From: Elusimicrobiota bacterium
GTDB lineage: Bacteria; Elusimicrobiota; Elusimicrobia; UBA1565; JACRDR01
NCBI GenBank assembly: GCA_041694815.1
Contig: JBGFSC010000009.1
Coordinates: 1 to 62,080 of the forward strand
Reading direction: 5' to 3'
Length of the DNA stretch: 62,080 bases
This document shows positions 1 to 62,080 of this stretch, one piece after another. A program made the position numbers and the translations under genes. The notes under the pieces are model-generated. The model saw only the letters and a program-made list of their open reading frames with translations, was not told the DNA's origin and did no database searches. Position 1 is the first letter of the stretch. The number at the start of each line of letters is the position of its first letter.

Positions 1-118
1 TTGATGCAGGACTGTGTTATAATGAGGCATAGGCGTCCTCCGTCGGTAGATTGCTTCCTCGCAGAAACATTCTACCAATGACGAAGGGCGCCTACGCTAT
101 TTTAACCGGACAGGAGTG
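1..118 (-). mobile_element. Left (5') end of an IS4-family insertion sequence: terminal IR, promoter, RBS and transposase start
   Basis: 101..118 reads CACTCCTGTCCGGTTAAA on the - strand, identical to 61961..61978 on +. It is followed by TGGTAGAAT (-10-like), GGAGG and an ATG at 30 giving MPHYNTVLHQ, which resembles IS4 (DUF4372-type) transposase N-termini. An imperfect hairpin spans 30..94. Confidence 0.85.
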
Positions 119-4234: not shown

Positions 4235-6151
4235 ATGGTCCGATCCGCCCGGCGGGTCTATAGTGATCCCGTGCAGGCCAAGCCCCTGTCCCGCTCCATG
4301 CCCATCGGCGCCGAGCTTTTCGAGGGCGGCGCTCACCTGCGCGTCTGGGCGCCGCGCCGCCGCGCGCTGGGCGTGCTGCTGGAAGATGAGCAGCGGGAGA
4401 TTCCCCTCAAAGCGGAGAGGGACGGGTATTTCTCCGGCTGGGTTCCCGGCGCCAAAGAGGGAATGCTCTATCGCCTCCGGCTCGACGGCAAGGAGTTGGC
4501 GCCCGATCCGGCCTCACGATTCCAGCCCCAAGGGCCTTGGGGACCCTCCCAACTGGTCGACGCCTCGCGCTACGCGTGGCGCGACGCGTCTTGGCGCGGC
4601 CCCTCTTTGGAAGGACAGGTCCTCTACGAGATGCACGTCGGCACGTTCACTCCCGAAGGCGGCTGGGAGGCGGCGCGCCGCCGCCTCGCGGAGCTCGCGG
4701 AGTTGGGAGTCACACTCGTCGAGCTGATGCCGATCGCCGAGTTTCCCGGACGCTTCGGCTGGGGCTACGACGGGGTCAACCTGTTCGCGCCCTACCACGC
4801 CTACGGGAGCCCGGACGATTTCAGGCGCTTCGTGGACGCCGCGCACGCGCTGCGCCTGGGCGTGATCCTGGACGTGGTCTACAACCATTTCGGGCCGGAC
4901 GGCAACACGCTGCCCTTGTTCTCGGAGGCGTACGCCAGCAGGCGTTACGAGACGGAGTGGGGGCCGGCCGTCAATTTCGACGGGCCCTCGAGCGGGCCAG
5001 TGCGCGAATTCGTCGTGTCCAACGCGGCGTATTGGATCTCCGAATTCCACCTCGACGGGCTCCGCCTGGACGCGACCCAGAACATATACGACGGATCCGC
5101 GGAGCATATACTCGCGGCAATCTCCAAGGCGGCCCGCGCCGCGGCCACGGGGCGCTCGCTGCTTTTGTTCGCCGAGAACCAGCCCCAGGACGTCCGCCTG
5201 ATCCGCCCGATCGAGCAGGGGGGCTTGGGGCTCGACGCGTTGTGGAACGACGATTTCCACCATAGCGCGATCGTGGCGATGACCGGCCGCCGGGAGGCCT
5301 ATTACGTCAACTATTCCGGAAGCCCCCAGGAGCTGATTTCCTCCGTCAAATGGGGATTCCTCTACCAAGGGCAGTACTACGGCTGGCACCGCAAGCCGCG
5401 GGGCACCCCGAGCCTAGGGATACCGGCGCCGCGCTTCGTCCATTATCTCGACAATCACGACCAGGTGGCCAATCTGCCGGGAAGCCGGCGCGGCGCCGCC
5501 TTCACCTCGCCGGGGCGCCAGCGGGCCATGACCGCGCTGCTTTTGCTCTGTCCGCAGACCCCGCTCCTGTTCCAGGGACAGGAATACGGCGCCGAGTCCC
5601 CCTTTCCTTATTTCGCCGACCATCGGGGCGAGCTCGCGCGGGCCGTAGCGCAGGGACGCCGGCAATTCATCAGTCAATTCCCGAGCCAGGCGCCGGCTTC
5701 CGGCCGGCCCGCCACGATCGGCGACCCGTCGGATCCCAAGCTCTTCCGCGGCGCCGTGCTGCGTGAGGACGCCGGGAGGGGGGCCTGGTGGCATCTGCAC
5801 CGCGATCTCCTGCTGCTCCGGCGCCGCGACCCCGTGTTCCGCCGGCAGGATGCGCGGCAGATCGACGGCGCCGTGCTCGGCACCGAGGCCTTCGCGCTCC
5901 GTTTTTTCGAGCGGGGGCGCAACGACCGGCTGCTGCTGGTCAACCTGGGCGTCGAAACGCGCCTGGAGCCTGCGGCCGAGCCGCTGCTCGCCCCTCCCGA
6001 ATCGGGCGCGTGGGCGCTGCTCTGGTCGAGCGAGGATCCGCGCTACGGCGGGGGCGGCACGCCACCCTTGGAGCGGCCCGCCTGGGTGCTGCCGCCCCAT
6101 TGCGCCATCGCGCTGGGCCCCTCGAATCTCTCCGATGGAAATCGCGCATAA
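4235..6151 (+). CDS. treZ: Malto-oligosyltrehalose trehalohydrolase (GH13)
   Basis: YEMHVGTFT, WGYDGV, DVVYNHFGP, GLRLDA and NHDQVAN motifs. Confidence 0.93.
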   Translation: MVRSARRVYSDPVQAKPLSRSMPIGAELFEGGAHLRVWAPRRRALGVLLEDEQREIPLKAERDGYFSGWVPGAKEGMLYRLRLDGKELAPDPASRFQPQGPWGPSQLVDASRYAWRDASWRGPSLEGQVLYEMHVGTFTPEGGWEAARRRLAELAELGVTLVELMPIAEFPGRFGWGYDGVNLFAPYHAYGSPDDFRRFVDAAHALRLGVILDVVYNHFGPDGNTLPLFSEAYASRRYETEWGPAVNFDGPSSGPVREFVVSNAAYWISEFHLDGLRLDATQNIYDGSAEHILAAISKAARAAATGRSLLLFAENQPQDVRLIRPIEQGGLGLDALWNDDFHHSAIVAMTGRREAYYVNYSGSPQELISSVKWGFLYQGQYYGWHRKPRGTPSLGIPAPRFVHYLDNHDQVANLPGSRRGAAFTSPGRQRAMTALLLLCPQTPLLFQGQEYGAESPFPYFADHRGELARAVAQGRRQFISQFPSQAPASGRPATIGDPSDPKLFRGAVLREDAGRGAWWHLHRDLLLLRRRDPVFRRQDARQIDGAVLGTEAFALRFFERGRNDRLLLVNLGVETRLEPAAEPLLAPPESGAWALLWSSEDPRYGGGGTPPLERPAWVLPPHCAIALGPSNLSDGNRA

Positions 6152-10627: not shown

Positions 10628-11401
10628 ATGAAGAAAAACTGGACAGCCGTTCTTCTTTTAACGTTGGCCCCTTGGGCCCGCGCTCAGGATTTCATCCCTA
10701 AATTCGTCTACATCCCGCCCGGAGAGTTCGATATGGGCAGTCTTGATAACGAGCAAGATAGATCCTCAGACGAAACACTGCACCGCGTGCGCATAAGCCA
10801 GGGCTTCGAGATGCAGACTACCGAGGTGACGCAGCTCCAGTATTATCTGATCACCGGCAGCAACCCATCGTGGTTTAAGGACTGCGAAAAATACGGCCCC
10901 AAGCAGGAGCCGATCTGCCCCAATCATTCCGTGGAGCAGGTCTCGTGGGAAGATGCCCAGGCGTTCATCCAACGTCTAAATGAATTGCAAGATAAATGCG
11001 TCTACCGCCTTCCCACTGAGGCGGAATGGGAATATGCGGCAAGGGGAGGGAAGTCGACGAGCTATTCGTTCGGCTCGAATGCCTCCGAATTGGGCGCGCA
11101 TGCCTGGTATTACGACAACTCAAATGGCCGAACTCATGCCGTTGCTTCAAAAAAGTCGAACCCGTTTGGCCTCTATGACATGCATGGCAATGTGTGGGAG
11201 TGGGTGCAGGACTGGTATGGGGATTACCCAAGCGGCAGCGTGACGGATCCTAAGGGCCCGAGTTCAGGCTCGGGCCGCGTCATCCGTGGCGGCTCCTGGT
11301 GCCGCAATGCCAGGAACCTGCGGTCGGCGCACCGCGTCTTCAACGGCCCCGGCGATCGCAACTACGATGTGGGGTTCCGCCTGGCGAGATCATGCCGTTA
11401 G
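10628..11401 (+). CDS. Secreted formylglycine-generating-enzyme-like (FGE-sulfatase/CLec) protein; remote DGR target 1
   Basis: Signal peptide; F.MGS, RLPTEAEWEYAAR, GLYDMHGNVWEW and RVIRGGSW...GFRLA motifs; 3' VR matches the two island targets. Confidence 0.92.
   Translation: MKKNWTAVLLLTLAPWARAQDFIPKFVYIPPGEFDMGSLDNEQDRSSDETLHRVRISQGFEMQTTEVTQLQYYLITGSNPSWFKDCEKYGPKQEPICPNHSVEQVSWEDAQAFIQRLNELQDKCVYRLPTEAEWEYAARGGKSTSYSFGSNASELGAHAWYYDNSNGRTHAVASKKSNPFGLYDMHGNVWEWVQDWYGDYPSGSVTDPKGPSSGSGRVIRGGSWCRNARNLRSAHRVFNGPGDRNYDVGFRLARSCR
11265..11388 (+). repeat. DGR variable region VR1
   Basis: 124-nt ungapped match to 58962..59085 and 60133..60256, differing only at codon positions 1-2. Confidence 0.88.
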
Positions 11402-11458
11402 CGCTTGGACGCTCGGGCCCTTGGCACTTGGTCCGCGGTTTATTTGAAGTAAATTAAG

Positions 11459-11499
11459 GAAGCGAGCCGGACGCGTGCGAAGCCGCGTACGGCGAGCTG
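11459..11499 (+). other. Conserved post-VR hairpin (DGR target-recognition element)
   Basis: GAAGCGAGCCGGACGCGTGCGAAGCCGCGTACGGCGAGCTG is nearly identical to 60319..60360; GC-GAA-GC cap. Confidence 0.75.
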
Positions 11500-51616: not shown

Positions 51617-51693
51617 CGCGGGGTAGAGCAGCCTGGTAGCTCGCAAGGCTCATAACCTTGAGGTCGCTGGTTCAAATCCAGCCCCCGCAACCA
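51617..51693 (+). tRNA. tRNA-fMet (CAT), initiator
   Basis: CGCGGGG...CTCATAA...GGTTCAAATCC...CCCGCAACCA; 77 nt; C1:A72 mismatch; encoded CCA. Confidence 0.95.
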
Positions 51694-51725
51694 TTTCCCT
51701 AGGTTTCTCGACGAAAAACTGAACT

Positions 51726-51801: not shown

Positions 51802-52770
51802 ATGGGAAATGGCATCGGATACGCGCCGCAGAGCGTCAACCAAGTCCCCATAGGTAATGCCTCGGAGGCCTTCATGCTCCGATGCCACGCGCAGAATCTT
51901 ACCAATGGGACCATCACTTGGTACACCGACCTCCTGCGCCTCTGGAATAGGTACCTCGAGTCGAAAGGCGTGACCCTCGCCAAGGAGGTTACGCCGGAGC
52001 TCATCCGGTCCTATTTTGACGACATGCGCAAGCGCGGCCTGGCGTCAGGCACGATCGCGCACACCTACGGTGCGCTGCGCTGCTTCTTTGGATTCCTTGC
52101 GCGCGAACGGATGATCCCGCAGAACCCCTTCGCCCTGGTCGCCAAACCGCGGATGGAGAAGAAGCTCATCAAGCCGCTCTCGATGGATCAGGCGCGGTTG
52201 CTTCTGGCGGCCATCAACAAGCGGCCTTTCCAAGGACAGCGGCTTTGGACCATGGTTGTCCTAATTCTCGATACTGGCCTGCGCGTCGCGGAAGTCATGG
52301 GGCTCAGGATGGACGATGTGGACTTTCAGGTGGGAGCGCTGCGCGTGTTAGGTAAGGGCGGCAAGGAGAGGCAGGTTCCGTTTAGCTCCACGGCCAAGCA
52401 GGCGCTTTGGAACTACATCGCGCGGCGCGGGGAAATCCCGGGGCAAGACTTTGTTTTCGTCAGCCAATTCGGGCAGCCGCTGGACCGCTGCTGGATGAGG
52501 AAGGCATTGCGTTGTGTCAACCGCAGGCTCGGGCTCAAGGGAGTCCGTCTATCGCCGCATACCTTAAGGCATACCTTCGCGACACAATACATCATCAACG
52601 GCGGAGACGCCTTCAGCCTCCAGGCGATCCTCGGTCATTCGACGATCGATATGGTCAAGGTTTACGTGGCGCTCGCCAACCGGGACATTGCCTTGCTTCA
52701 TCGGCGCTTCAGCCCGATGGAACGCATGGGAGTCGTGCCTGGCAGCAGGCGCCGCATCATGATCCGCTGA
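51802..52770 (+). CDS. Tyrosine recombinase/integrase
   Basis: DTGLR, GKGGKER, HTLRHTFA and LGHS...Y motifs; adjacent to the tRNA 3' end. Confidence 0.92.
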   Translation: MGNGIGYAPQSVNQVPIGNASEAFMLRCHAQNLTNGTITWYTDLLRLWNRYLESKGVTLAKEVTPELIRSYFDDMRKRGLASGTIAHTYGALRCFFGFLARERMIPQNPFALVAKPRMEKKLIKPLSMDQARLLLAAINKRPFQGQRLWTMVVLILDTGLRVAEVMGLRMDDVDFQVGALRVLGKGGKERQVPFSSTAKQALWNYIARRGEIPGQDFVFVSQFGQPLDRCWMRKALRCVNRRLGLKGVRLSPHTLRHTFATQYIINGGDAFSLQAILGHSTIDMVKVYVALANRDIALLHRRFSPMERMGVVPGSRRRIMIR

Positions 52771-54666: not shown

Positions 54667-55341
54667 ATGACCAAGAGATTCTTGATCGGAGTTTTAGCCT
54701 TATTGGTCCCGGCGGCTCTCTCCATAGCCGGCCCCTGCGTGTCCCAGCGTCAATTCGAAGAGCAGGAAGCAGCGCGGCGGGCGCTGGAAGACGAGCGCCG
54801 CCGCCAGCAGGCCTATCAGAGCCTGCGCGAGCAATTCTGGATTCAGGCGATGGAGATGGAAAAAAAGCTCACCGCGCGCAAGGCGAAGGTTTTGGTGGAC
54901 ACCGAGCTCGTGACCCACGCGGCGATCAACGCCACGGTCAAGACCATGGATCTGCTCTGGCAGCGCTGGACGCACGAGGATCCTGGCAAGGATGCCGGCA
55001 AGGCCTGGGATAACACTTTAAAGGAGAACATGTCGCAGTGGCTCAAGCAATACGGCATGCTTGGCTCTTCCGAGGACTTGGATGCGCTCGTGGCCGAAAA
55101 CGCTCCGGCTTTCGCCGCGATCGCGGAGAAATGGCAGAAGGAGTTCGCCGTGTCCGAGAATCTTCAGGCCCAGGCCGTCAAAGTGCGTGAGGAGAACGCC
55201 CTGGCGATGCAGAGAGCCGGCGTGCGCATCGAAGCTGCGGCCGAGGAGGCGCGTAGCGCCACGCAGGAAACAACCGTTTCAGCCAGGAAGGAAGCCAAGG
55301 CCAAAAAGGAAAAGACCGCCGAAGGATCGGAGGGGAAATGA
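54667..55341 (+). CDS. Secreted helical hypothetical protein
   Basis: Signal peptide MTKRFLIGVLALLVPAALSIA; stop overlaps the next ATG (ATGA). Confidence 0.7.
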   Translation: MTKRFLIGVLALLVPAALSIAGPCVSQRQFEEQEAARRALEDERRRQQAYQSLREQFWIQAMEMEKKLTARKAKVLVDTELVTHAAINATVKTMDLLWQRWTHEDPGKDAGKAWDNTLKENMSQWLKQYGMLGSSEDLDALVAENAPAFAAIAEKWQKEFAVSENLQAQAVKVREENALAMQRAGVRIEAAAEEARSATQETTVSARKEAKAKKEKTAEGSEGK

Positions 55342-58088
55342 GCGTTCTCTTTTCAGCGATCGCGTTGCTCTGGCCGGCGCTTGGAATTTCCGTTTCTGCT
55401 TCAGCGCAGGCGGCGGCCGTCACTTCGGCCCAGGCGAGCTTCGAGGATTTCCTGCGCGAGAACTACGACAATCAAACCCAGCCCTTGGCGCGGGCGGTCT
55501 TGACCGACTTAAGCGCCCTTCCCGCGCGTCCCTTCGCCGGCCGCGCCGAGGAGGTCGGAGGCATCCTGGCCGTGCTGGCCCAGAAGCAGGGCCAGAAGCG
55601 TTCGGTGCTTCTGACCGGCCCATCCGGCATCGGCAAGGGCGCCTTGATCCAGCATCTGGCCTCCGAGGTGAAGGTAGGCAATCTTTCCTTAGACGCCAAG
55701 TTCCTGGAGCTCGACCTGGCCCGCCTGTCGGGCATGGCCTCGCAGATGGCTCCGGCGCCGGGCCAAAAACCTCCATTTGAGGCCTTCTTCGAGGATGTTT
55801 TGCCGCCCTTGCGCGACAAGGCGATCATCGTGATGAAGGGGATCGAGGGCCTGCTTCAGCCCGGCGCCAATAGCCAGTTCGTGGAGCGCCTGCGCAACCC
55901 GATGGAGCGCTCGGGACAGCGCTTCATCTTCCTTTTAGAGAACGATGCCTCGCTGCCGGCCGATCATTTCATCCGCAAATACGCCCAGAAGATCGAGCTC
56001 AAGGAGCCCGATGAAAAAGGCGCCATGACGATGCTTTTGGCCAACAAAGGCAATTGGGAGTCCGCCTATGGTCTCAAGATCAAGGACGAGGCCATCGAGG
56101 ACTTGGTCGGGGTTTCCAAGGAGTTCCTACGCCGCCTGCAGCCATTGGAGCTCATCGACAATATGGAGGCGGCTCTCCGGGAAAATCAGCCGGAGGCTCG
56201 CAAGAACACCGCGCGGGCCTCGGCCAATGATCTGTTCTCCCGGCTTTCGCTCGCCCTGGCGAAGTACCGCAGGACCCAGTCCCCGAAGGACTATAACGAG
56301 GTCCTGGCCCTGGCCAAACAGTTGGAGGCCGAGCGGGCGCGGCTTAAGGCGGCCGGCGAGGTAGAGCTCGATTCGCAACAGGTCAAGGAGATCATGGCGG
56401 AAATCTACGACAATCCCATGATCTTAAAGAGCGACGATTTCCGCAAAACACTGCTTGCGGCGGTGCCGAAAGTCCGCGCTGGCGTCGTGGGCCAGGATGA
56501 GGCGGTCAACGCCGTCAGTGCCGTGCTGAAAAACACTGCGGCGGGGCTCGTCAGCAACAAGCGGCCCTTGGGCTCGTTTCTGCTCCTGGGCCCTACCGGC
56601 GTCGGCAAGACCCAATTGGCCCGCGTGCTCGCTCGCTCGCTTTTCGGCGATGAGAACGCCATGGCTCGGCTCGACATGTCCGAATACATGGAAAAGCACA
56701 CAGTTTCCCGGCTTATCGGCTCGCCTCCGGGATACGTGGGCTACGGCGAGGGGGGCCAGCTTACGGAGGTGGTGCGCAAGCGGCCCTATTCGGTGATCCT
56801 GTTCGATGAGATCGAAAAGGCTCATGCCGATGTCTTAAACGTGCTGCTTCAAATCCTTGAAGACGGGCGCCTGACCGACGGTCAGGGCCGCACGGTCGAT
56901 TTCCGCAGGACGGTTGTGTTCATGACCTCGAACCTGTCGAGCCGGCTGATCCAGCGCATGCAGGAGCAGGGCAAGACGTTCGAAGAAATCCAGGCGGCGG
57001 TCAAGGAGGACTTAAAGGGCCAGCTCCGGCCGGAACTGATCGGCCGACTAGATAAGGTCATCGTCTTTACGCCGCTCAATCGTGACCAGGTGTTGGGCAT
57101 TGGCGAGCTTCTGGCTAATGAGGAGATCGCCAAGCCCCTGGCCCAGGGTGGCCACGAGCTGGGCTATTTAGGGAAGAACGTTCTGGCCCACGTGGCCGAT
57201 CATGGCGGCTTCGACCCGGAATACGGCGCGCGTCCCATGCGCCGCGCCATGCAGGAGCAGATCCGCGACGCGGTGACCCAACACCTGCTCAACCAATCCG
57301 AAGGTCCGCGGAAAATCTCGATCGACTTAAATAAAGAGGGCAGGATCGAGGTGAAAAGCGAGGCTTTGGCCAAGAAGGTCGAGTCCAAGAACGCTTTGCC
57401 GGAAGGTTTGGGAAGCATCTGGCTGAGGCATATCCTCGATCCCAATGTCTGGCAGGACATGACGGTGTCGGCCTTGAAAGCGGTTTATGAGAGCTTCGGC
57501 CAAAAGCCGCTGCAATCCCAGAAATTCGACAATTTCGGCCTCCAGATAGCGTCCCCTAAGGGCGAGACGGTCCATCAGCTCAAGGCCAAGCATATGGATG
57601 CCAACTTGAACGACCCTGCTTTGACCTCGGAGAAAGCCCCTGGCGGCGGGCTTTTCGGCTGGATGGACAAATTGCGCAAAGAGGGCTACGGCGATGAGGA
57701 GCTTCGGGCGATCCAGGCCTGGGCGGCCAAGGCCCTTCGCTGCGGCAAGAGCGCTGCGGCAGCGCAGGTGCCCTCCTCCAAGCTCACCTTGGAATGGCAG
57801 GATTCATCGCTCGGCCATGTTTTGAGGGTCGATGCCCCGCCGCTCAACGAGCAAGAATTGGCCGAGGCCTACGGCAGCTATGAGGCGCATTTCTCGAGAA
57901 AGCCAGGCTCGCTCGAGGAAACCCTTAAGGAATCCGACGGCCTGAGCGCCGAAGGCCATCGCAGCCGGGCGCAGCTCATGGAGATCAAGCGGACCCTAGG
58001 TCAGATCCCGAACGCCTACTTCGGCGCTTATTGGGACAAGAGCAATTCGACGTACTGGCTGCTCGTTCCTAAGAGGAAACAGTCATGA
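55338..58088 (+). CDS. ClpB/ClpC-like AAA+ ATPase with signal peptide and unique C-terminal extension
   Basis: D2: GQDEAV, GPTGVGKT, DMSEYMEKH, PPGYVGY, DEIEKAH, GARPMRR. D1: GPSGIGKG with degenerate Walker B. Confidence 0.85.
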   Translation: MSVLFSAIALLWPALGISVSASAQAAAVTSAQASFEDFLRENYDNQTQPLARAVLTDLSALPARPFAGRAEEVGGILAVLAQKQGQKRSVLLTGPSGIGKGALIQHLASEVKVGNLSLDAKFLELDLARLSGMASQMAPAPGQKPPFEAFFEDVLPPLRDKAIIVMKGIEGLLQPGANSQFVERLRNPMERSGQRFIFLLENDASLPADHFIRKYAQKIELKEPDEKGAMTMLLANKGNWESAYGLKIKDEAIEDLVGVSKEFLRRLQPLELIDNMEAALRENQPEARKNTARASANDLFSRLSLALAKYRRTQSPKDYNEVLALAKQLEAERARLKAAGEVELDSQQVKEIMAEIYDNPMILKSDDFRKTLLAAVPKVRAGVVGQDEAVNAVSAVLKNTAAGLVSNKRPLGSFLLLGPTGVGKTQLARVLARSLFGDENAMARLDMSEYMEKHTVSRLIGSPPGYVGYGEGGQLTEVVRKRPYSVILFDEIEKAHADVLNVLLQILEDGRLTDGQGRTVDFRRTVVFMTSNLSSRLIQRMQEQGKTFEEIQAAVKEDLKGQLRPELIGRLDKVIVFTPLNRDQVLGIGELLANEEIAKPLAQGGHELGYLGKNVLAHVADHGGFDPEYGARPMRRAMQEQIRDAVTQHLLNQSEGPRKISIDLNKEGRIEVKSEALAKKVESKNALPEGLGSIWLRHILDPNVWQDMTVSALKAVYESFGQKPLQSQKFDNFGLQIASPKGETVHQLKAKHMDANLNDPALTSEKAPGGGLFGWMDKLRKEGYGDEELRAIQAWAAKALRCGKSAAAAQVPSSKLTLEWQDSSLGHVLRVDAPPLNEQELAEAYGSYEAHFSRKPGSLEETLKESDGLSAEGHRSRAQLMEIKRTLGQIPNAYFGAYWDKSNSTYWLLVPKRKQS

Positions 58089-59098
58089 GAAACATTCCCA
58101 TGCACGCGATGAAGGCAACAAGGATGATGGTCTTGGCGGCACTGATAGGGCAACTTTATGCGCCGGTCTGGGGCTACGAGATCCCCGACGGTCCTACGGA
58201 GGACCAGAGCTTCGAGGCTCATTTCCTGAACGCCAAGCAAAAGGTGACGGAGGGCGCGGCCGCCCTGGCCCCGAACGGGCAAAAGAACGAGACGCCGGTC
58301 ATCTCTGACGGTCAGGCCGGCATCGAGGCGATGGACGGCAAGCGGGTAGGCCTGGCGGCGCGATTCATTACGATCCAGCCTGGGACCTTCCAGATGGGAA
58401 GCCCGAGCAATGAATCTGGGCGCTATGACAACGAGATCCAGCACTCGGTCACCCTGACCCGGGGCTTCGAGCTGCAGGCGACCGCCGTGACCCAGATGCA
58501 GTACTTCTTGGTCATGGGCCGTAACCCATCTTACTTTCACGCTCGCGAGAATTGCGATCAAAGCAATGCTCCAGGCGCCAATAATTTCCGGGTCATCAAC
58601 GGCGCGGAAATCTGCGTCGACCATCCCGTAGAGCAGGTATCGTGGGAGGACGCTCAGGAATTCATCCGGCGGTTGAATGAACTCCAAAACCAATACACGT
58701 ATCGCCTGCCCACCGAAGCTGAACGGGAGTACGCGACAAGAGCCGGGACCTTATCGAGCTATTCGTTCGGCTCAAGCGAGTCCGATCTGGGCGACAATGC
58801 CTGGTATTATGGGAACTCTAATAACCGCACGCACGCGGTGGCGACGAAGCGGGCCAATCCGTGGGGCCTCTATGACATGCACGGCAACGTATGGGAATGG
58901 GTGCAGGACTGGTATGGGGACTATCCAAACCAGAGTGTGACGGACCCTAAAGGCCCGAATACAGGCTCGTACCGCGTCATCCGTGGCGGCTCCTGGGGCA
59001 ACAGTGCCGGGGGCCTGCGGTCGGCGTTCCGCTACTACGGCGGCCCCGGCGGTCGCAGCGGCTATGTGGGGTTCCGCCTGGCGAGGTCGCGACGTTGA
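58085..59098 (+). CDS. Secreted FGE-sulfatase/CLec protein; DGR target 2
   Basis: FQMGS, RLPTEAE, DMHGNVWEW and RVIRGGSW..GFRLARS motifs; C-terminal VR. Confidence 0.93.
   Translation: MRNIPMHAMKATRMMVLAALIGQLYAPVWGYEIPDGPTEDQSFEAHFLNAKQKVTEGAAALAPNGQKNETPVISDGQAGIEAMDGKRVGLAARFITIQPGTFQMGSPSNESGRYDNEIQHSVTLTRGFELQATAVTQMQYFLVMGRNPSYFHARENCDQSNAPGANNFRVINGAEICVDHPVEQVSWEDAQEFIRRLNELQNQYTYRLPTEAEREYATRAGTLSSYSFGSSESDLGDNAWYYGNSNNRTHAVATKRANPWGLYDMHGNVWEWVQDWYGDYPNQSVTDPKGPNTGSYRVIRGGSWGNSAGGLRSAFRYYGGPGGRSGYVGFRLARSRR
58962..59085 (+). repeat. DGR variable region VR2
   Basis: Ungapped match to VR1/VR3; downstream hairpin ATCGCCC-GTAAA-GGGCGAT within 59162..59189. Confidence 0.9.
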
Positions 59099-59207
59099 AA
59101 TTTGAACCCTTGGACACTCGGCCCTTGGCGGGAATTTTCAGCCAGGGAAAGCGCAGCCGGAGCGCATCGCCCGTAAAGGGCGATCGCGCAGGCGGAGCGA
59201 ACGGAGC

Positions 59208-60269
59208 ATGAATAGGAGCAAACTTGAGAGAACAAATATGAAAGAGCGCGTGATGATCTTGACGATGACATTGAGTTTGGTCTGCTCGAGCTCTCGCGCC
59301 TACGAGATTCCCGACGGCCCCACCGAGGATCAGAGCTTTGAGGCTCATTTTCTCAAGGCGAAGCAGAAAACAGCCGAAACCGTTCAAAAGGTCGAGGAAC
59401 GCAGAGCGGATGAGGCAGGACCCGCGGCTCAGGTCGTAGCCGAAACCTTGAACGCCATCGATGCCTTAAACGGCCAGCGCGTCGGCATGGCGGCACGGTT
59501 CATCGCGATCCAGCCGGGAACCTTCCAGATGGGAAGCCCCGGCGATGAGGCAAGCCGCGACAACGACGAGACCCAGCACTCGGTCACCCTGACCCAGGGT
59601 TTCGAGATGCAGGCCACGCCGGTGACGCAGATGCAGTATTTCCTGGTCACCGGCCGCAATCCATCGAACTTTCGAAACCGGGAGAACTGCGATCCCAATA
59701 ACTTTCGCGTTGTCAACGGGCTCGGGTTCTGCGCCGAGCACCCCGTCGAGATGGTCTCCTGGGAAGACGCGCAGGACTTCATCCGGCGTCTTAACGAGAT
59801 GCAAAACCAATATACGTATAGGCTTCCAACCGAGGCCGAATGGGAATATGCGGCGCGGGCGGGCACCCAGCCCGGCTTTCCTTATTCGTTCGGTCATAAC
59901 GATACAGGCGAACTCGACAATTACGCCTGGTATTCGAACAATTCAGGCAATCGAACGCACGCGGTTGCGATGAAGCGGCAGAATCCTTGGGGGCTTTACG
60001 ACATGCATGGCAATGTCTGGGAGTGGGTGCAGGATTGGTTCGGAGCTTATCCCAATACGGGAAGCGGCGGCTTCTTGGGCATAGGTGGCAATAGAGGCAA
60101 TGGCGCTGTGACCGACCCTAAGGGCCCGAATACAGGCTCGAGCCGCGTCATCCGTGGCGGCTCCTGGTACCGCAATGCCGGGCGCCTGCGGTCGGCGAGC
60201 CGCCTCTACAGCGGCCCCGGCTATCGCGGCAGCTATGTGGGGTTCCGCCTGGCGAGGTCGCGACGTTGA
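59208..60269 (+). CDS. Secreted FGE-sulfatase/CLec protein; DGR target 3 (start possibly 59238)
   Basis: Same motifs as target 2; C-terminal VR. Confidence 0.93.
   Translation: MNRSKLERTNMKERVMILTMTLSLVCSSSRAYEIPDGPTEDQSFEAHFLKAKQKTAETVQKVEERRADEAGPAAQVVAETLNAIDALNGQRVGMAARFIAIQPGTFQMGSPGDEASRDNDETQHSVTLTQGFEMQATPVTQMQYFLVTGRNPSNFRNRENCDPNNFRVVNGLGFCAEHPVEMVSWEDAQDFIRRLNEMQNQYTYRLPTEAEWEYAARAGTQPGFPYSFGHNDTGELDNYAWYSNNSGNRTHAVAMKRQNPWGLYDMHGNVWEWVQDWFGAYPNTGSGGFLGIGGNRGNGAVTDPKGPNTGSSRVIRGGSWYRNAGRLRSASRLYSGPGYRGSYVGFRLARSRR
60133..60256 (+). repeat. DGR variable region VR3
   Basis: Ungapped match to VR1/VR2; downstream hairpin at 60326..60354. Confidence 0.9.
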
Positions 60270-60377
60270 AATTTGAACCCTTGGACACTTAGCCCTTGGG
60301 TCGGCTGTTTGCAGTGAAGAAGCGAGCCGGGCGCGTGCGTAAGCCGCGCTCGGCGAGCTGTATAGAGGGAAGTAGAC

Positions 60378-60884
60378 ATGAAGCTCAAAGTGTTCACCCT
60401 GCGCATGAACCCGACGACAGGAAATTTCGATGACGCGGGGCTGTCGGAGTTTCAGTTAGGCAAGGACGTGCTGGAGGCGTCCGAGCACCTTCTCGTTCAC
60501 GAGAAAACCCCCACGCTGGTCTTGGTGTTGCGCTATCGGGAGGTCCCCGACGACAGGCGCTCGCCTGATGCCGCGCGCAAGGACTGGCGCGCGGAGCTGG
60601 ACCCCGCCGGCCAGCGGATTTACGACGAGCTGCGCCTCTGGCGCGGACGGCGGGCCAAGCAGGAGGGCATGCCACCGTATCTCATCCTCAATAATCGGGA
60701 ACTCGCGGAACTGGCCATGAAGAAGCCGACCAGTCTCGCCAAGCTGCAAGAGATAGAAGGCATCGGCGAGGCCAAGTCGCAGCGCTGGGGCGAGGAATTG
60801 CTCGGTCTCTTGGAAAAACTTGTCGCGCCCAAGGTGGAAACCGCAGCGGCCCCGGCTCAGCCGGGGGGGGGGGGTAATCTATGA
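60378..60884 (+). CDS. HRDC domain protein (DGR accessory)
   Basis: YDELRLWR...A..EGMPPYLILNN..L.ELA...P.....L..IEGIG..K...WG pattern. Confidence 0.88.
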   Translation: MKLKVFTLRMNPTTGNFDDAGLSEFQLGKDVLEASEHLLVHEKTPTLVLVLRYREVPDDRRSPDAARKDWRAELDPAGQRIYDELRLWRGRRAKQEGMPPYLILNNRELAELAMKKPTSLAKLQEIEGIGEAKSQRWGEELLGLLEKLVAPKVETAAAPAQPGGGGNL

Positions 60885-61225
60885 GCTCCGTGGAGCTTCC
60901 CCTCTTCGTCCATTGGACGCAAGTGCTCAAGGACATTTTATCGCGCACCGAAAAATTTCCCAAACGCGTTCGTTTTACCCTGTCTTCGCGCATCGATAAC
61001 CTGACGCTCGACGTCCTGGAAAAAATCGTCGAGGCGAGATACGCCAAGGACAAGGACGCCTCGCTCCAGCAGGCCAGCCTATATCTTGAGAAGCTTCGCG
61101 TGCTTCTTCGGATCAGCCATGAGGAGAAACATCTCGATCATCGCGGCTTTGAGCATGTGGCCCGCAATATCGACGAGGCCGGGCGCATGCTGGGCGGCTG
61201 GATACGGAGCAGAAAAGAAAAATGA
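60881..61225 (+). CDS. avd: DGR accessory variability determinant (four-helix bundle)
   Basis: KFPKRVRFTLSSRI, LEKLRVLLR and EAGRMLGGW motifs; overlaps the RT start. Confidence 0.9.
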   Translation: MSSVELPLFVHWTQVLKDILSRTEKFPKRVRFTLSSRIDNLTLDVLEKIVEARYAKDKDASLQQASLYLEKLRVLLRISHEEKHLDHRGFEHVARNIDEAGRMLGGWIRSRKEK

Positions 61226-61977
61226 AGCGAACCGGGCATCTTTTCGAGCAGGTCGCGGATTTCCACGCCCTTTGCGCTGCGGCCAGGCGGGCGGCGCGTG
61301 GCAAGGGCGGAACGCAGTCCGCGTCGTCTTTTCTATTCCACATGGAAGGCGAAGTGCTTCAGCTTCAGCGCGAGATATTGGATGGGACCTATCGCCCTCG
61401 CCAGTACCGCACATTCTACATTTCCGATCCCAAGCCTAGGACGATCTCGGCCGCAGATTTCAGGGACCGCGTGGCCCATCACGCCCTTTGCGCCATTTTG
61501 GAGCCGCTATTCGAACGGACGGCCATTGAGGATAGCTACGCCTGCCGAGCAGGTAAGGGTTCCCACCTGGCCGTGCAGAGGGCTCAATATTTCGCGAGAC
61601 GCTTGGGTCGCTTTCTGAAGCTCGATATCCGCAAATTCTTCGAGACCTTGGATCATGATGTGCTCAAGGCCGCCTTGCGGCGCATCATCAAAGACGAGCG
61701 CCTATTGGAGCTTACGGGCCGGATCATCGACCATGGCGCTCCGGGTTCACCGCGAGGCAGGGGGCTCCCCATAGGTAACCTGACGAGCCAGCATTTCGCT
61801 AACTTTTACCTCGGCCCGTTGGATCGCTTCATCAAGCAGGAGCTCCGCGTATTGGGCTATGTGCGCTATATGGACGACTTTCTGCTTTTTTCTGATTCCA
61901 AGGAGTTCCTGCGCCAAGCCCATCGGCGCATTTGCGAGTTCGTTGAAAGCGAGCTCAAGCCACTCCTGTCCGGTTAA
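61222..61977 (+). pseudogene. DGR reverse transcriptase, interrupted at 61960/61961 by an IS4 element
   Basis: PKPRTI...FRDRVAHHA, LKLDIRKFF, GLPIGNLTSQ..AN.YL and YVRYMDD motifs. The FLG motif and thumb are absent; the last codons PLLSG* come from the IS IR. Confidence 0.88.
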
Positions 61978-62080
61978 AGTTGGAGGCATAGCTGGAGGTC
62001 TTGACGCCTGAGGCGGTCGAGCCTTTTGGGGTTGAGGTGGAGCAGATCGAAAAGCGAGGCTCGCTCAAGCAAGGTTTCTT
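61961..62080 (-). mobile_element. Right (3') end of IS4-family element with transposase C-terminus
   Basis: IR CACTCCTGTCCGGTTAAA; the - strand frame ETLLERASLFDLLHLNPKRLDRLRRQDLQLCLQL* ends inside the IR at 61974. Confidence 0.82.

What the first reader, a model, noticed from the sequence alone, without database searches (positions are those of the whole stretch)
58085..61977. Multi-target DGR (two FGE/CLec targets-HRDC-avd-RT) on a tRNA-integrated island
Seen: three 124-nt VRs align without gaps. They differ at 24 columns in 14 codons, all at codon positions 1-2 and none at position 3, and 20 of the 24 columns show A in at least one copy. Just upstream of the VRs the genes do show ordinary synonymous differences. 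Known: this is the footprint of adenine-specific mutagenic retrohoming from AAC/AAT codons; the RT has the DGR-type LTSQ and YMDD motifs and lies next to Avd. Inference: the TR should read approximately GGCTCG AAC CGCGTC A.C CGTGGCGGCTCCTGG AAC AAC AAT GCC AGG AAC CTGCGGTCGGCG AAC CGC AAC AAC AAC ..C CCCGGC AAT CGC AAC AAC AAT GTGGGGTTCCGCCTGGCG.
Basis: partly seen in the sequence, partly recalled or inferred. Interest (0 to 1): 0.9.

Follow-up and report, generated by a model that had tools for sequence, protein, structure and literature searches.

The report
Three-target DGR with IS-broken reverse transcriptase
This is a genuine diversity-generating retroelement that rewrites the tips of three exported lectin-fold proteins, carried on a conjugative island, but its reverse transcriptase gene has been cut in two by a jumping gene; the element type is already well known.

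Summary
Three gap-free 124-nt repeats (window 58962-59085, 60133-60256, 11265-11388) differ at 24 columns in 14 codons, 12 at codon position 1, 12 at position 2 and none at position 3. The predicted template repeat (TR) exists, on another contig (C31 9345-9468, minus strand). The three variable repeats (VRs) differ from it at 19, 17 and 14 of 30 adenines and at 0 of 94 other bases.

The cassette is FGE/C-type-lectin target x2, HRDC, Avd, RT, TR, plus a third target 47 kb upstream. This is the known HRDC-containing architecture.

- The RT gene is split after YMDD by a 13-copy IS4-type element with a 9-bp target duplication. The window ends inside that element.
- A second, intact paralogous DGR sits on contig C37 with its own TR and VR.
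- The third target lies outside the roughly 41-kb tRNA-Met conjugative island that carries the cassette.

I also saw a covariation-supported RNA structure just 3' of TR, and short tandem repeats plus a hairpin 3' of each VR.

Verdict: real, a new member of a known kind, moderate interest. Current activity could not be tested because no reads were listed.

The parts
10628..11401 (+). Target gene T3 (257 aa, signal-peptide-like N-terminus, FGE-sulfatase/C-type-lectin fold). It is the remote target, 47 kb upstream of the cassette and about 40 kb outside the island.
   Evidence: Pfam PF03781 E 2e-50. It is 77-80% identical to the chromosomal paralogs on C8, C38 and C40, but only about 60% to T1/T2.
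11265..11388 (+). VR3, the variable repeat of T3.
   Evidence: 14 of 30 TR adenines changed, 0 of 94 other bases changed.
11404..11493 (+). VR3 3' flank: four CTYRG units at 11404, 11412, 11420 and 11427 (spacing 8, 8, 7), then a GC-rich hairpin at 11466-11493.
51617..51697 (+). tRNA-Met (51617-51693) and the attL-like repeat (51646-51697).
   Evidence: ARAGORN. The 52 nt are repeated 100% identical at C54 94485-94536 on the minus strand.
51802..52770 (+). Tyrosine integrase of the island.
   Evidence: Pfam Phage_integrase E 3e-37.
58085..59098 (+). Target gene T1 (337 aa). Its start overlaps the stop of the upstream ClpB-like AAA+ gene by 4 nt.
   Evidence: Pfam PF03781 E 2e-48. Best solved relative is 2Y3C, Treponema denticola variable protein 1, E 4e-28.
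58962..59085 (+). VR1.
   Evidence: 19 of 30 TR adenines changed, 0 of 94 other bases changed.
59109..59189 (+). VR1 3' flank: CTYRG units at 59109, 59117 and 59124, then a hairpin at 59162-59189.
59208..60269 (+). Target gene T2 (353 aa).
   Evidence: Pfam PF03781 E 2e-48. 62% identical to T1.
60133..60256 (+). VR2.
   Evidence: 17 of 30 TR adenines changed, 0 of 94 other bases changed.
60280..60354 (+). VR2 3' flank: CTYRG units at 60280, 60288 and 60295, then a hairpin at 60326-60354 (interrupted 12-bp stem, loop GTAA).
60378..60884 (+). HRDC-domain accessory gene (168 aa).
   Evidence: Pfam HRDC E 1e-17. A homolog occupies the same position in 60 of 80 related loci.
60881..61225 (+). avd accessory gene (114 aa).
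   Evidence: Pfam bAvd PF22296 E 5e-17.
61222..61960 (+). 5' part of the DGR reverse transcriptase gene (aa 1-246, through IGNLTSQ and YMDD). The ORF then reads 5 codons into the IS and stops at 61977.
   Evidence: RVT_1 E 3e-16. Best solved relative 8UB7 'Reverse transcriptase' E 8e-43, against 1e-19 for a group II intron RT. Aligns to aa 1-246 of the intact 378-aa RT on C37.
61952..61960 (.). 9-bp target-site duplication AGCTCAAGC of the IS insertion.
   Evidence: The same 9 bp follow the IS right end on C31.
61961..62080 (+). Left end of an IS4-type insertion sequence (18-bp terminal inverted repeat). The contig ends inside it.
   Evidence: 13 left and 13 right ends, all at contig ends; 12 of the 13 left ends pair with a right end by an exact 9-bp duplication. 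A full 1268-bp copy in L110 encodes a DDE_Tnp_1 + DUF4372 transposase.

Best explanation
This is a diversity-generating retroelement (DGR) of the HRDC-plus-Avd type. Its template repeat TR1 lies at the 3' end of the RT gene. TR1 carries 10 AAC and 3 AAT codons in the target reading frame.

Inferred by analogy with the Bordetella phage system: the TR RNA, together with the structured RNA just downstream of it, is copied by the RT-Avd complex into cDNA with random bases opposite adenines. The cDNA then replaces the 124-nt variable repeat at the 3' end of each target gene, guided by the GC-rich 3' homology (IMH).

Shown: three exported FGE/C-type-lectin-fold proteins carry VRs that are copies of TR1 changed only at adenines. 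Two of these genes lie in the cassette and one lies 47 kb away in the chromosome outside the island. So all three were rewritten from TR1, recently enough that no other substitution has accumulated.

Shown: the cassette rides on a roughly 41-kb integrative conjugative-type island inserted in tRNA-Met.

Shown: in the assembled genotype the RT gene is cut after the YMDD motif by a recently expanded IS4-type element, with a clean 9-bp duplication and no other damage.

Inferred: DGR-1 can therefore no longer make its own RT, and the three VRs are frozen. The exceptions would be that the intact sibling DGR on contig C37 supplies RT-Avd in trans, or that IS-free cells persist in the population.
For: TR/VR pattern:
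- VR1, VR2 and VR3 differ from TR1 at 19, 17 and 14 of 30 adenines and at 0 of 94 non-adenines. All 24 columns that vary among the VRs are TR adenines at codon positions 1-2.

Proteins:
- FGE-sulfatase x3, HRDC, bAvd, RVT_1.
- The RT is closest to solved chain 8UB7 (E 8e-43). Target T1 is closest to Treponema TvpA 2Y3C (E 4e-28).

RT break:
- The window ends in an IS left end. The reverse complement of C31 starts in the IS right end, followed by the same 9 bp and then the RT reading frame and TR.
- The two RT parts align to aa 1-246 and 245-377 of the intact RT on C37, at 79% and 66% identity.

IS:
- 12 of 13 left ends pair with a right end by an exact 9-bp duplication.

Family layout:
- 17 of 23 related loci tested have an A-biased TR/VR pair. 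In the loci aligned with the RT start at base 6001, the TR begins about 1.0 kb after the RT start.
- HRDC was found in 60 of 80 related loci, Avd in 57 and an FGE target in 58.

RNA 3' of TR:
- 23 pairs, 91.6% of cells paired against 32-49% in slid controls; covariation score 0.713 against 0.095-0.187; 0 of 500 shuffles reach it.

Island:
- Integrase, a 52-nt tRNA repeat on C54, and TrbI, TrbL, VirB4-like and coupling-protein genes.
Against: - No sequencing run was listed, so neither ongoing variation at the VRs nor fixation of the IS insertion could be examined.
- The C25-IS-C31 join is inferred from the 9-bp duplication and reading-frame continuity. No contig spans it, and the IS body is not in the assembly.
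- Whether the third target is rewritten as efficiently as the two cassette targets is unknown (14 changed adenines against 17-19).
- The DNA folds of the VR flanks are not more stable than shuffles (z -0.4 to -1.2). The hairpins therefore rest on conservation only.
- No relaxase was found among the 40 island and neighbouring ORFs scanned, so 'conjugative' is incomplete.
Confidence: 0.9

Rival explanations
1. DGR-1 is still diversifying its three targets because the intact sibling DGR on contig C37 (RT 378 aa, Avd, HRDC) supplies the proteins in trans and accepts TR1 RNA.
For: The C37 RT is intact, and the cassette proteins are close: RT N-part 79%, Avd 77%, HRDC 81% identity. The ~170 nt 3' of TR, where the RT-Avd-binding RNA elements lie in the Bordetella system, are the best-conserved part of the 3' region between the two cassettes, and differences in stems are compensatory or wobble. 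Wu et al. 2018 (passage seen) states that avd, TR and brt can be expressed in trans from a plasmid.
Against: Each TR has only its own VRs. VR1-3 carry 12-14 non-adenine mismatches to TR2, and the C37 VR carries 11 to TR1, so no cross-templating is seen. The loop of the first hairpin differs between the two RNAs. The IS also separates TR1 from the avd-RT promoter region, so TR1 may no longer be transcribed (inference).
Confidence: 0.25
2. The IS insertion in the RT is polymorphic. Part of the population still has an intact RT, and DGR-1 is active there. The assembly shows only the IS-bearing haplotype, or breaks at the repeat regardless.
For: The IS ends are 100% identical in all 13 copies, so the expansion is recent. 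Both RT halves are otherwise undamaged. The VRs show no decay at non-adenine positions.
Against: No contig of the genome joins the two RT halves directly. None of the 21 metagenome stretches fetched with the IS end matches this junction. Neither result can exclude a minority haplotype.
Confidence: 0.2
3. The TR on C31 belongs to a third, separate cassette, and the window's RT is simply truncated at a contig end, so the join is an artefact of my scaffolding.
For: The join is not spanned by any contig, and the IS has 13 copies.
Against: The 9 bp before the IS in the window equal the 9 bp after the IS on C31, as in 11 other pairs. The RT frame resumes at exactly the residue where the window copy stops (aa 245-246 of the C37 RT). 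tblastn finds only two RT N-parts in the genome.
Confidence: 0.03
4. There is no retroelement activity. The three repeats are paralogs kept similar by gene conversion, with diversifying selection on ligand-binding codons.
For: The genome has 11 FGE paralogs with similar C-termini.
Against: Selection does not explain 0 of 94 non-adenine differences beside 14-19 of 30 adenine differences to a non-coding-frame template next to an RT-Avd pair. It also does not explain third-position divergence resuming immediately upstream.
Confidence: 0.01

Closest known systems
HRDC-containing DGRs ('Architecture C' of Wu et al. 2018, NAR 46:11, PMC5758913; type example the Treponema denticola DGR with target TvpA)
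   Same: HRDC accessory gene. FGE-sulfatase/C-type-lectin target with a C-terminal VR. Several targets, including non-adjacent ones. AAC-rich TR. T1's best solved relative is TvpA 2Y3C. The paper reports HRDC in 14 of 372 DGRs (about half of them also with avd), more than one cassette target in about 15%, non-adjacent targets in 45 of 372, and several DGRs per genome in about 10% of completed DGR-containing genome sequences (passages seen).
   Different: Here the gene order is target-target-HRDC-avd-RT with the TR inside the RT 3' end. In T. denticola the HRDC gene lies between TR and RT (PMC4891356, passage seen). The RT here is IS-disrupted. The clade is far larger than the 14 examples of 2018: 527 relatives were confirmed in one scan.
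Bordetella phage BPP-1 DGR (mtd-avd-TR-brt)
   Same: Adenine-specific TR-to-VR transfer. Avd. RT with IGxxxSQ and YMDD. GC-rich IMH at the VR 3' end with a TR counterpart that diverges right after it. A hairpin 3' of the VR (Guo et al. 2011, PMC3240598, passages seen). A stem-loop just 3' of TR, like the Avd-binding stem-loop that Handa et al. predict in 207 of 278 Avd-DGRs (bioRxiv 10.1101/2023.10.23.563531, passage seen).
   Different: Chromosomal/ICE-borne, not phage-borne. Three targets. An extra HRDC gene. TR downstream of the RT instead of upstream. The hairpin lies about 70-78 nt from the end of TR/VR homology, against the 4-34 bp reported, with 3-4 short tandem repeats in between.
Legionella pneumophila DGR on a genomic island
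   Same: A DGR as cargo of a horizontally transferred island in a bacterial chromosome, diversifying an exported protein.
   Different: In Wu et al. 2018 (passage seen) the Legionella element is listed with the MutS-like accessory gene, not HRDC, and has a single target as far as I recall.

Membership tests
Diversity-generating retroelement | TR/VR repeat pair whose differences fall at TR adenines | tested here: met
   19, 17 and 14 of 30 adenines changed and 0 of 94 other bases changed, for three VRs.
Diversity-generating retroelement | RT of the DGR clade (IGxxxSQ in motif 4, YxDD) | tested here: met
   IGNLTSQ and YMDD are in the translation. Best solved relative 8UB7 E 8e-43, against group II intron RT 1e-19. 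The I181/G182/Q187 spacing is quoted in the Handa preprint passage.
Diversity-generating retroelement | Uninterrupted RT gene (needed for autonomous activity) | tested here: not met
   IS insertion at window 61961 with a 9-bp duplication; the rest of the gene is on C31. This lowers 'active DGR', not 'is a DGR'.
Diversity-generating retroelement | Accessory variability determinant (Avd) and/or HRDC gene in the cassette | tested here: met
   bAvd PF22296 E 5e-17; HRDC PF00570 E 1e-17.
Diversity-generating retroelement | VR at the C-terminus of a C-type-lectin-fold (FGE-sulfatase) or Ig-fold target | tested here: met
   PF03781 E 1e-48 to 1e-50, covering the protein to within 3 residues of the end. 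TvpA 2Y3C E 4e-28.
Diversity-generating retroelement | IMH at the VR 3' end versus a non-identical IMH* at the TR | tested here: met
   Homology ends at ...GGCGAG. The next bases differ between TR and all VRs, while the VR flanks resemble each other. Their function was not testable.
Diversity-generating retroelement | Structured RNA next to TR (Avd-binding stem-loop type) | tested here: met
   A 10-bp hairpin with a 4-nt loop starts 20 nt after the TR homology ends. 8 of its 10 pairs show changes on both sides across 16 loci.
Diversity-generating retroelement | Ongoing VR variation within a population | not testable with these tools
   No sequencing run was listed.
Integrative conjugative element | Integrase next to a tRNA, direct repeat of the tRNA 3' end at the far border, type IV secretion genes, relaxase | tested here: inconclusive
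   Integrase, 52-nt repeat, and TrbI, TrbL, TraG P-loop and TraG-D_C are present. No relaxase family was hit among the ORFs scanned. Contiguity rests on IS duplications.
IS4-family insertion sequence | DDE_Tnp_1 transposase, terminal inverted repeats, fixed-length target duplication | tested here: met
   18-bp inverted repeats and 9-bp duplications in 12 pairs. A full 1268-bp copy in metagenome locus L110 has DDE_Tnp_1 E 4e-26 and DUF4372 E 6e-26. The body of the window's own copy is not assembled.

The most novel reading that the evidence does not exclude
The 3-4 tandem ~8-nt units (core CTTGG / CTTKR) between the end of each VR and the GC hairpin may be a so far undescribed cis element of target recognition in the HRDC-plus-Avd DGR clade, for instance the docking site of the HRDC protein. 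This element, rather than VR homology alone, could be what lets an island-borne DGR capture a chromosomal paralog such as T3. Separately, the IS-broken DGR-1 may be kept running by the RT-Avd of the sibling DGR, which would be natural sharing of one RT between two template repeats.
Probability: 0.25. Interest if true: 0.6.

Novelty: new member of a known kind. Interest (0 to 1): 0.35.

Why it matters
The finding shows that a DGR template can be predicted from its variable repeats alone: the prediction was met base for base. It adds a well-resolved example of several things at once. An island-borne DGR writes into a chromosomal gene outside its own island. Two sibling DGRs keep separate template/target sets in one 2.8-Mb genome. 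A DGR is caught just after inactivation by an IS burst. For DGR biology, the useful leads are the covariation-supported RNA 3' of TR in this large clade, which no Rfam family matched in this contig, and the conserved tandem repeats 3' of the VRs. Both are directly testable in reconstituted systems. None of this changes the picture of what DGRs are.

Tried and rejected
- Sequencing runs for window 58085-61961: none was listed.
- Rfam on the whole of C31: only a chance microRNA match, E 0.89.
- IS family from relatives' genomes: the ORFs of locus L091 gave no Pfam or NCBIfam hit, and the G028 copy is cut by a contig end. This was solved instead with a metagenome copy.
- The metagenome stretches fetched with the IS end do not include this RT junction.
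- The ClpB-like AAA+ gene whose stop overlaps the T1 start is not a DGR part. tblastn found it beside 1 of 80 related loci, weakly.
- I looked by eye for complementarity between the VR-flank repeats and the conserved ACCAAAG segment of the post-TR RNA. It does not covary across loci, so I dropped it.
- The FGE paralogs on C40, C8, C38 and two of the three on C19 are not current targets of TR1 or TR2: they carry 11-36 non-adenine mismatches. The third C19 copy (62 of 124 identical) and the C34 copy (a 54-nt match) were not put through that count. C40, C8 and C38 still show more mismatches at TR1-adenine sites (14-19 of 29) than elsewhere (12-20 of 95). I read them as former or orphan targets; no third TR or RT was found.
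- 30 relatives of the same family and order have no close homolog of this RT (best 34% identity).

Full report
**Observation**

The window is a whole contig (C25) of a 2.77-Mb, 54-contig genome rated 97.8% complete. Repeat search and a pattern search find three copies of the repeat, not only the two inside the given coordinates.
- VR1 at 58962-59085 ends ORF 58085-59098.
- VR2 at 60133-60256 ends ORF 59208-60269.
- VR3 at 11265-11388 ends ORF 10628-11401.

The three copies align without gaps. They differ at 24 columns in 14 codons: 12 at codon position 1, 12 at position 2 and none at position 3. Twenty columns keep an A in at least one copy. Immediately upstream the paralogs diverge in the ordinary way, mostly at third positions (5/8/26 and 17/15/47 differences at positions 1/2/3).

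**The template repeat**

A low-stringency blastn of the VRs against the genome found a further copy on contig C31. On the reverse complement of C31 the sequence runs: IS end, 9 bp, an open frame that continues the RT, then the repeat (C31 9345-9468). This copy has AAC or AAT at every diversified codon: 10 AAC and 3 AAT in the target frame.

VR1, VR2 and VR3 differ from it at 19, 17 and 14 of its 30 adenines and at 0 of its 94 other bases (Fisher p 5e-15, 3e-13, 1e-10). Homology stops at ...GGCGAG. The next bases differ between TR and VRs, while the VR flanks resemble one another. That is the IMH/IMH* arrangement described for DGRs (Wu et al. 2018, passages seen). From the codon table, 13 NNC/NNT codons plus one NGG and one NTC allow about 2e16 protein variants per target (my arithmetic).

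**Genes**

Pfam gives FGE-sulfatase for all three targets (E 1e-48 to 1e-50), HRDC (1e-17), bAvd (5e-17) and RVT_1 (3e-16). The best solved relative of T1 is the Treponema denticola variable protein 2Y3C (E 4e-28). The best solved relative of the RT is 8UB7, 'Reverse transcriptase', at E 8e-43, far ahead of group II intron RTs at 1e-19. The RT has IGNLTSQ and YMDD. All three targets begin with signal-peptide-like N-termini (by eye).

**The RT is broken**

The 251-aa ORF at 61222-61977 is not a complete gene. From 61961 the window is the left end of an insertion sequence, and the contig stops 120 nt into it. The reverse complement of C31 begins in the right end of the same IS. The 9 bp before the IS in the window (61952-61960) equal the 9 bp after it on C31.

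The genome holds 13 left ends and 13 right ends of this IS, all at contig ends and 100% identical. Twelve of the 13 left ends pair with a right end by an exact 9-bp duplication. The two RT parts align to residues 1-246 (79% identity) and 245-377 (66%) of an intact 378-aa paralog on contig C37. So nothing is lost except continuity.

The IS body is not in the assembly. A full 1268-bp copy with its own 9-bp duplication, in a metagenome contig (L110), encodes a 388-aa DDE_Tnp_1 + DUF4372 transposase, i.e. IS4-type.

**A second DGR and orphan paralogs**

Contig C37 carries target-HRDC-avd-RT-TR in the same order, on the minus strand. Its TR2 differs from TR1 at 15 positions. Its VR differs from TR2 at 19 of 28 adenines and at no other base. 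VR1-3 carry 12-14 non-adenine mismatches to TR2, and the C37 VR carries 11 to TR1. Each template therefore serves only its own targets.

Seven more FGE paralogs (C40, C8, C38, three on C19, C34) have VR-like ends. The five that were scored (C40, C8, C38 and two of the C19 copies) match neither TR, with 11-36 non-adenine mismatches. No third RT or TR was found.

T3 belongs by sequence to the chromosomal paralog group: 77-80% identity to C8, C38 and C40, about 60% to T1/T2. Yet its last 124 nt are TR1-derived. I read this as capture of a chromosomal paralog by the island's DGR (inference).

**The island**

tRNA-Met (51617-51693) is followed by a tyrosine integrase, RadC, an ECF sigma factor, an unknown ORF, a 916-aa ClpB-like AAA+ protein and then the DGR. 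The IS duplications scaffold C25(+)-IS-C31(-)-IS-C54(-). On C54, in the same orientation, the last 52 nt of the tRNA region recur 100% identical (94485-94536).

Between the two repeats lie about 41 kb, counting two IS copies (my arithmetic). This stretch includes two AbiEii genes (one beside an AbiEi antitoxin gene), a sigma-54-type regulator set, and TrbI, TrbL, a VirB4-like TraG P-loop ATPase and a coupling-protein homolog. This is an integrative conjugative-type island. No relaxase was recognised. T3 lies about 40 kb upstream of the tRNA and so outside the island.

**Relatives**

One scan of species-representative genomes found 527 relatives of the RT. The best are 76-78% identical, in MAGs labelled Bacillota, Elusimicrobia and 'bacterium'. 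The rest, at 41-57%, spread over many phyla.
- Of the 23 closest loci tested, 17 have an A-biased TR/VR pair. In the loci aligned with the RT start at base 6001, the TR begins about 1.0 kb after the RT start, as here.
- tblastn finds HRDC in 60, Avd in 57 and an FGE target in 58 of the 80 loci, many of which are cut by contig ends.
- In 30 genomes of the same family and order, the best RT match is 34% identical. This fits horizontal arrival on the island.
- Earlier notes of this scan call the genome Elusimicrobiota. I did not test that.

**RNA next to TR**

The roughly 170 nt after TR1 (C31 about 9345 to 9174) are the best-conserved part of the 3' region between the two cassettes. An alignment of 16 loci gives three helices with 23 pairs, 17 of them with changes on both sides. 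On that structure 91.6% of cells pair, against 32-49% when partners are slid. The covariation score is 0.713 against 0.095-0.187, and 0 of 500 shuffles reach it.

The first helix is 10 bp with a 4-nt loop and starts 20 nt after the TR homology ends. It corresponds to the Avd-binding stem-loop that Handa et al. predict just downstream of TR in 207 of 278 Avd-containing DGRs (bioRxiv 10.1101/2023.10.23.563531, passages seen). Rfam has no match in this contig.

**DNA next to the VRs**

After each true VR come 3-4 units of about 8 nt with core CTTGG/CTYRG: at 59109/59117/59124, 60280/60288/60295, and 11404/11412/11420/11427. About 25-35 nt further on lies a GC-rich hairpin: 59162-59189, 60326-60354, 11466-11493.

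The hairpins fold as drawn, but the flanks as a whole are not more stable than shuffles (z -0.4 to -1.2).

Related DGRs from other phyla show the same kind of repeat after their VRs.
- A strict pattern hits 22 of 66 VR flanks against 9 of 4000 random windows.
- A periodicity score of at least 14 of 20 is reached by 28 of 66 VR flanks, 0 of 60 TR flanks and 64 of 3200 random windows.
- These loci are kin, so the counts are not independent.

Guo et al. 2011 describe the hairpin as 7-10 bp, loop GRNA, 4-34 bp from the VR (passages seen). I found no mention of the tandem repeats in the passages returned by term searches of Wu 2018, Guo 2011 and the Treponema paper, nor among the titles and abstract openings of the 12 papers listed (of 92 matching) in one search. 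That is not a full reading of the literature.

**Verdict**

By the published surveys, every headline feature is known: HRDC plus Avd, several targets, non-adjacent targets, several DGRs per genome. This is therefore a new member of a known kind.

Particular to this case are the IS-split RT beside an intact sibling DGR, a target outside the carrying island, and the flank repeats. Whether DGR-1 still works could not be decided without reads. The possibilities are in trans via the sibling DGR, in IS-free cells, or not at all.

Noticed in passing
window 59109-59128, 60280-60299, 11404-11431; also L008-L034, L051, L058, L084 just 3' of their VRs: There are 3-4 tandem ~8-nt pyrimidine-rich units (core CTTGG/CTTKR) between the VR end and the GC hairpin, conserved in kind across related DGRs of several phyla. 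They are enriched in VR flanks (28 of 66) against TR flanks (0 of 60) and random windows (64 of 3200). Function unknown; I did not see it described.
   Followed up: partly
L001 (contig C31) about 9345 to 9174, minus strand; L002 (C37) equivalent: A structured RNA about 170 nt long lies directly 3' of TR: three helices, 23 pairs, strong covariation across 16 loci. No Rfam family matches.
   Followed up: yes
L002 (contig C37 30444-33478, minus strand): A second, intact DGR (target, HRDC, avd, 378-aa RT, TR2) with one cognate VR. It lies 3.4 kb from another copy of the same IS.
   Followed up: yes
window 2-118 and 61961-62080; 24 other contig ends of the genome: A 13-copy IS4-type element (18-bp inverted repeats, 9-bp duplications, 100% identical ends) accounts for many of the contig breaks. 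The duplications let 12 contig junctions be scaffolded.
   Followed up: yes
L005 (C40 455-1162), L003 (C8 7068-7841), L004 (C38 541-1314), L006 (C19, three copies), L007 (C34): Seven further FGE/lectin-fold paralogs have VR-like C-termini; the five scored match no TR in the genome. C40, C8 and C38 still differ from TR1 more at its adenine sites (14-19 of 29) than elsewhere (12-20 of 95). They may be former targets of lost templates.
   Followed up: partly
window 55338-58088: A 916-aa ClpB-like double AAA+ protein has its stop overlapping the start of target T1 by 4 nt. It is not found beside related DGRs.
   Followed up: partly
L001 7387-8863 and L088 1185-3421: Two AbiEii toxin genes lie on the same island: one (L001) directly follows an AbiEi antitoxin gene, the other (L088) follows a DUF6088 gene.
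   Followed up: no
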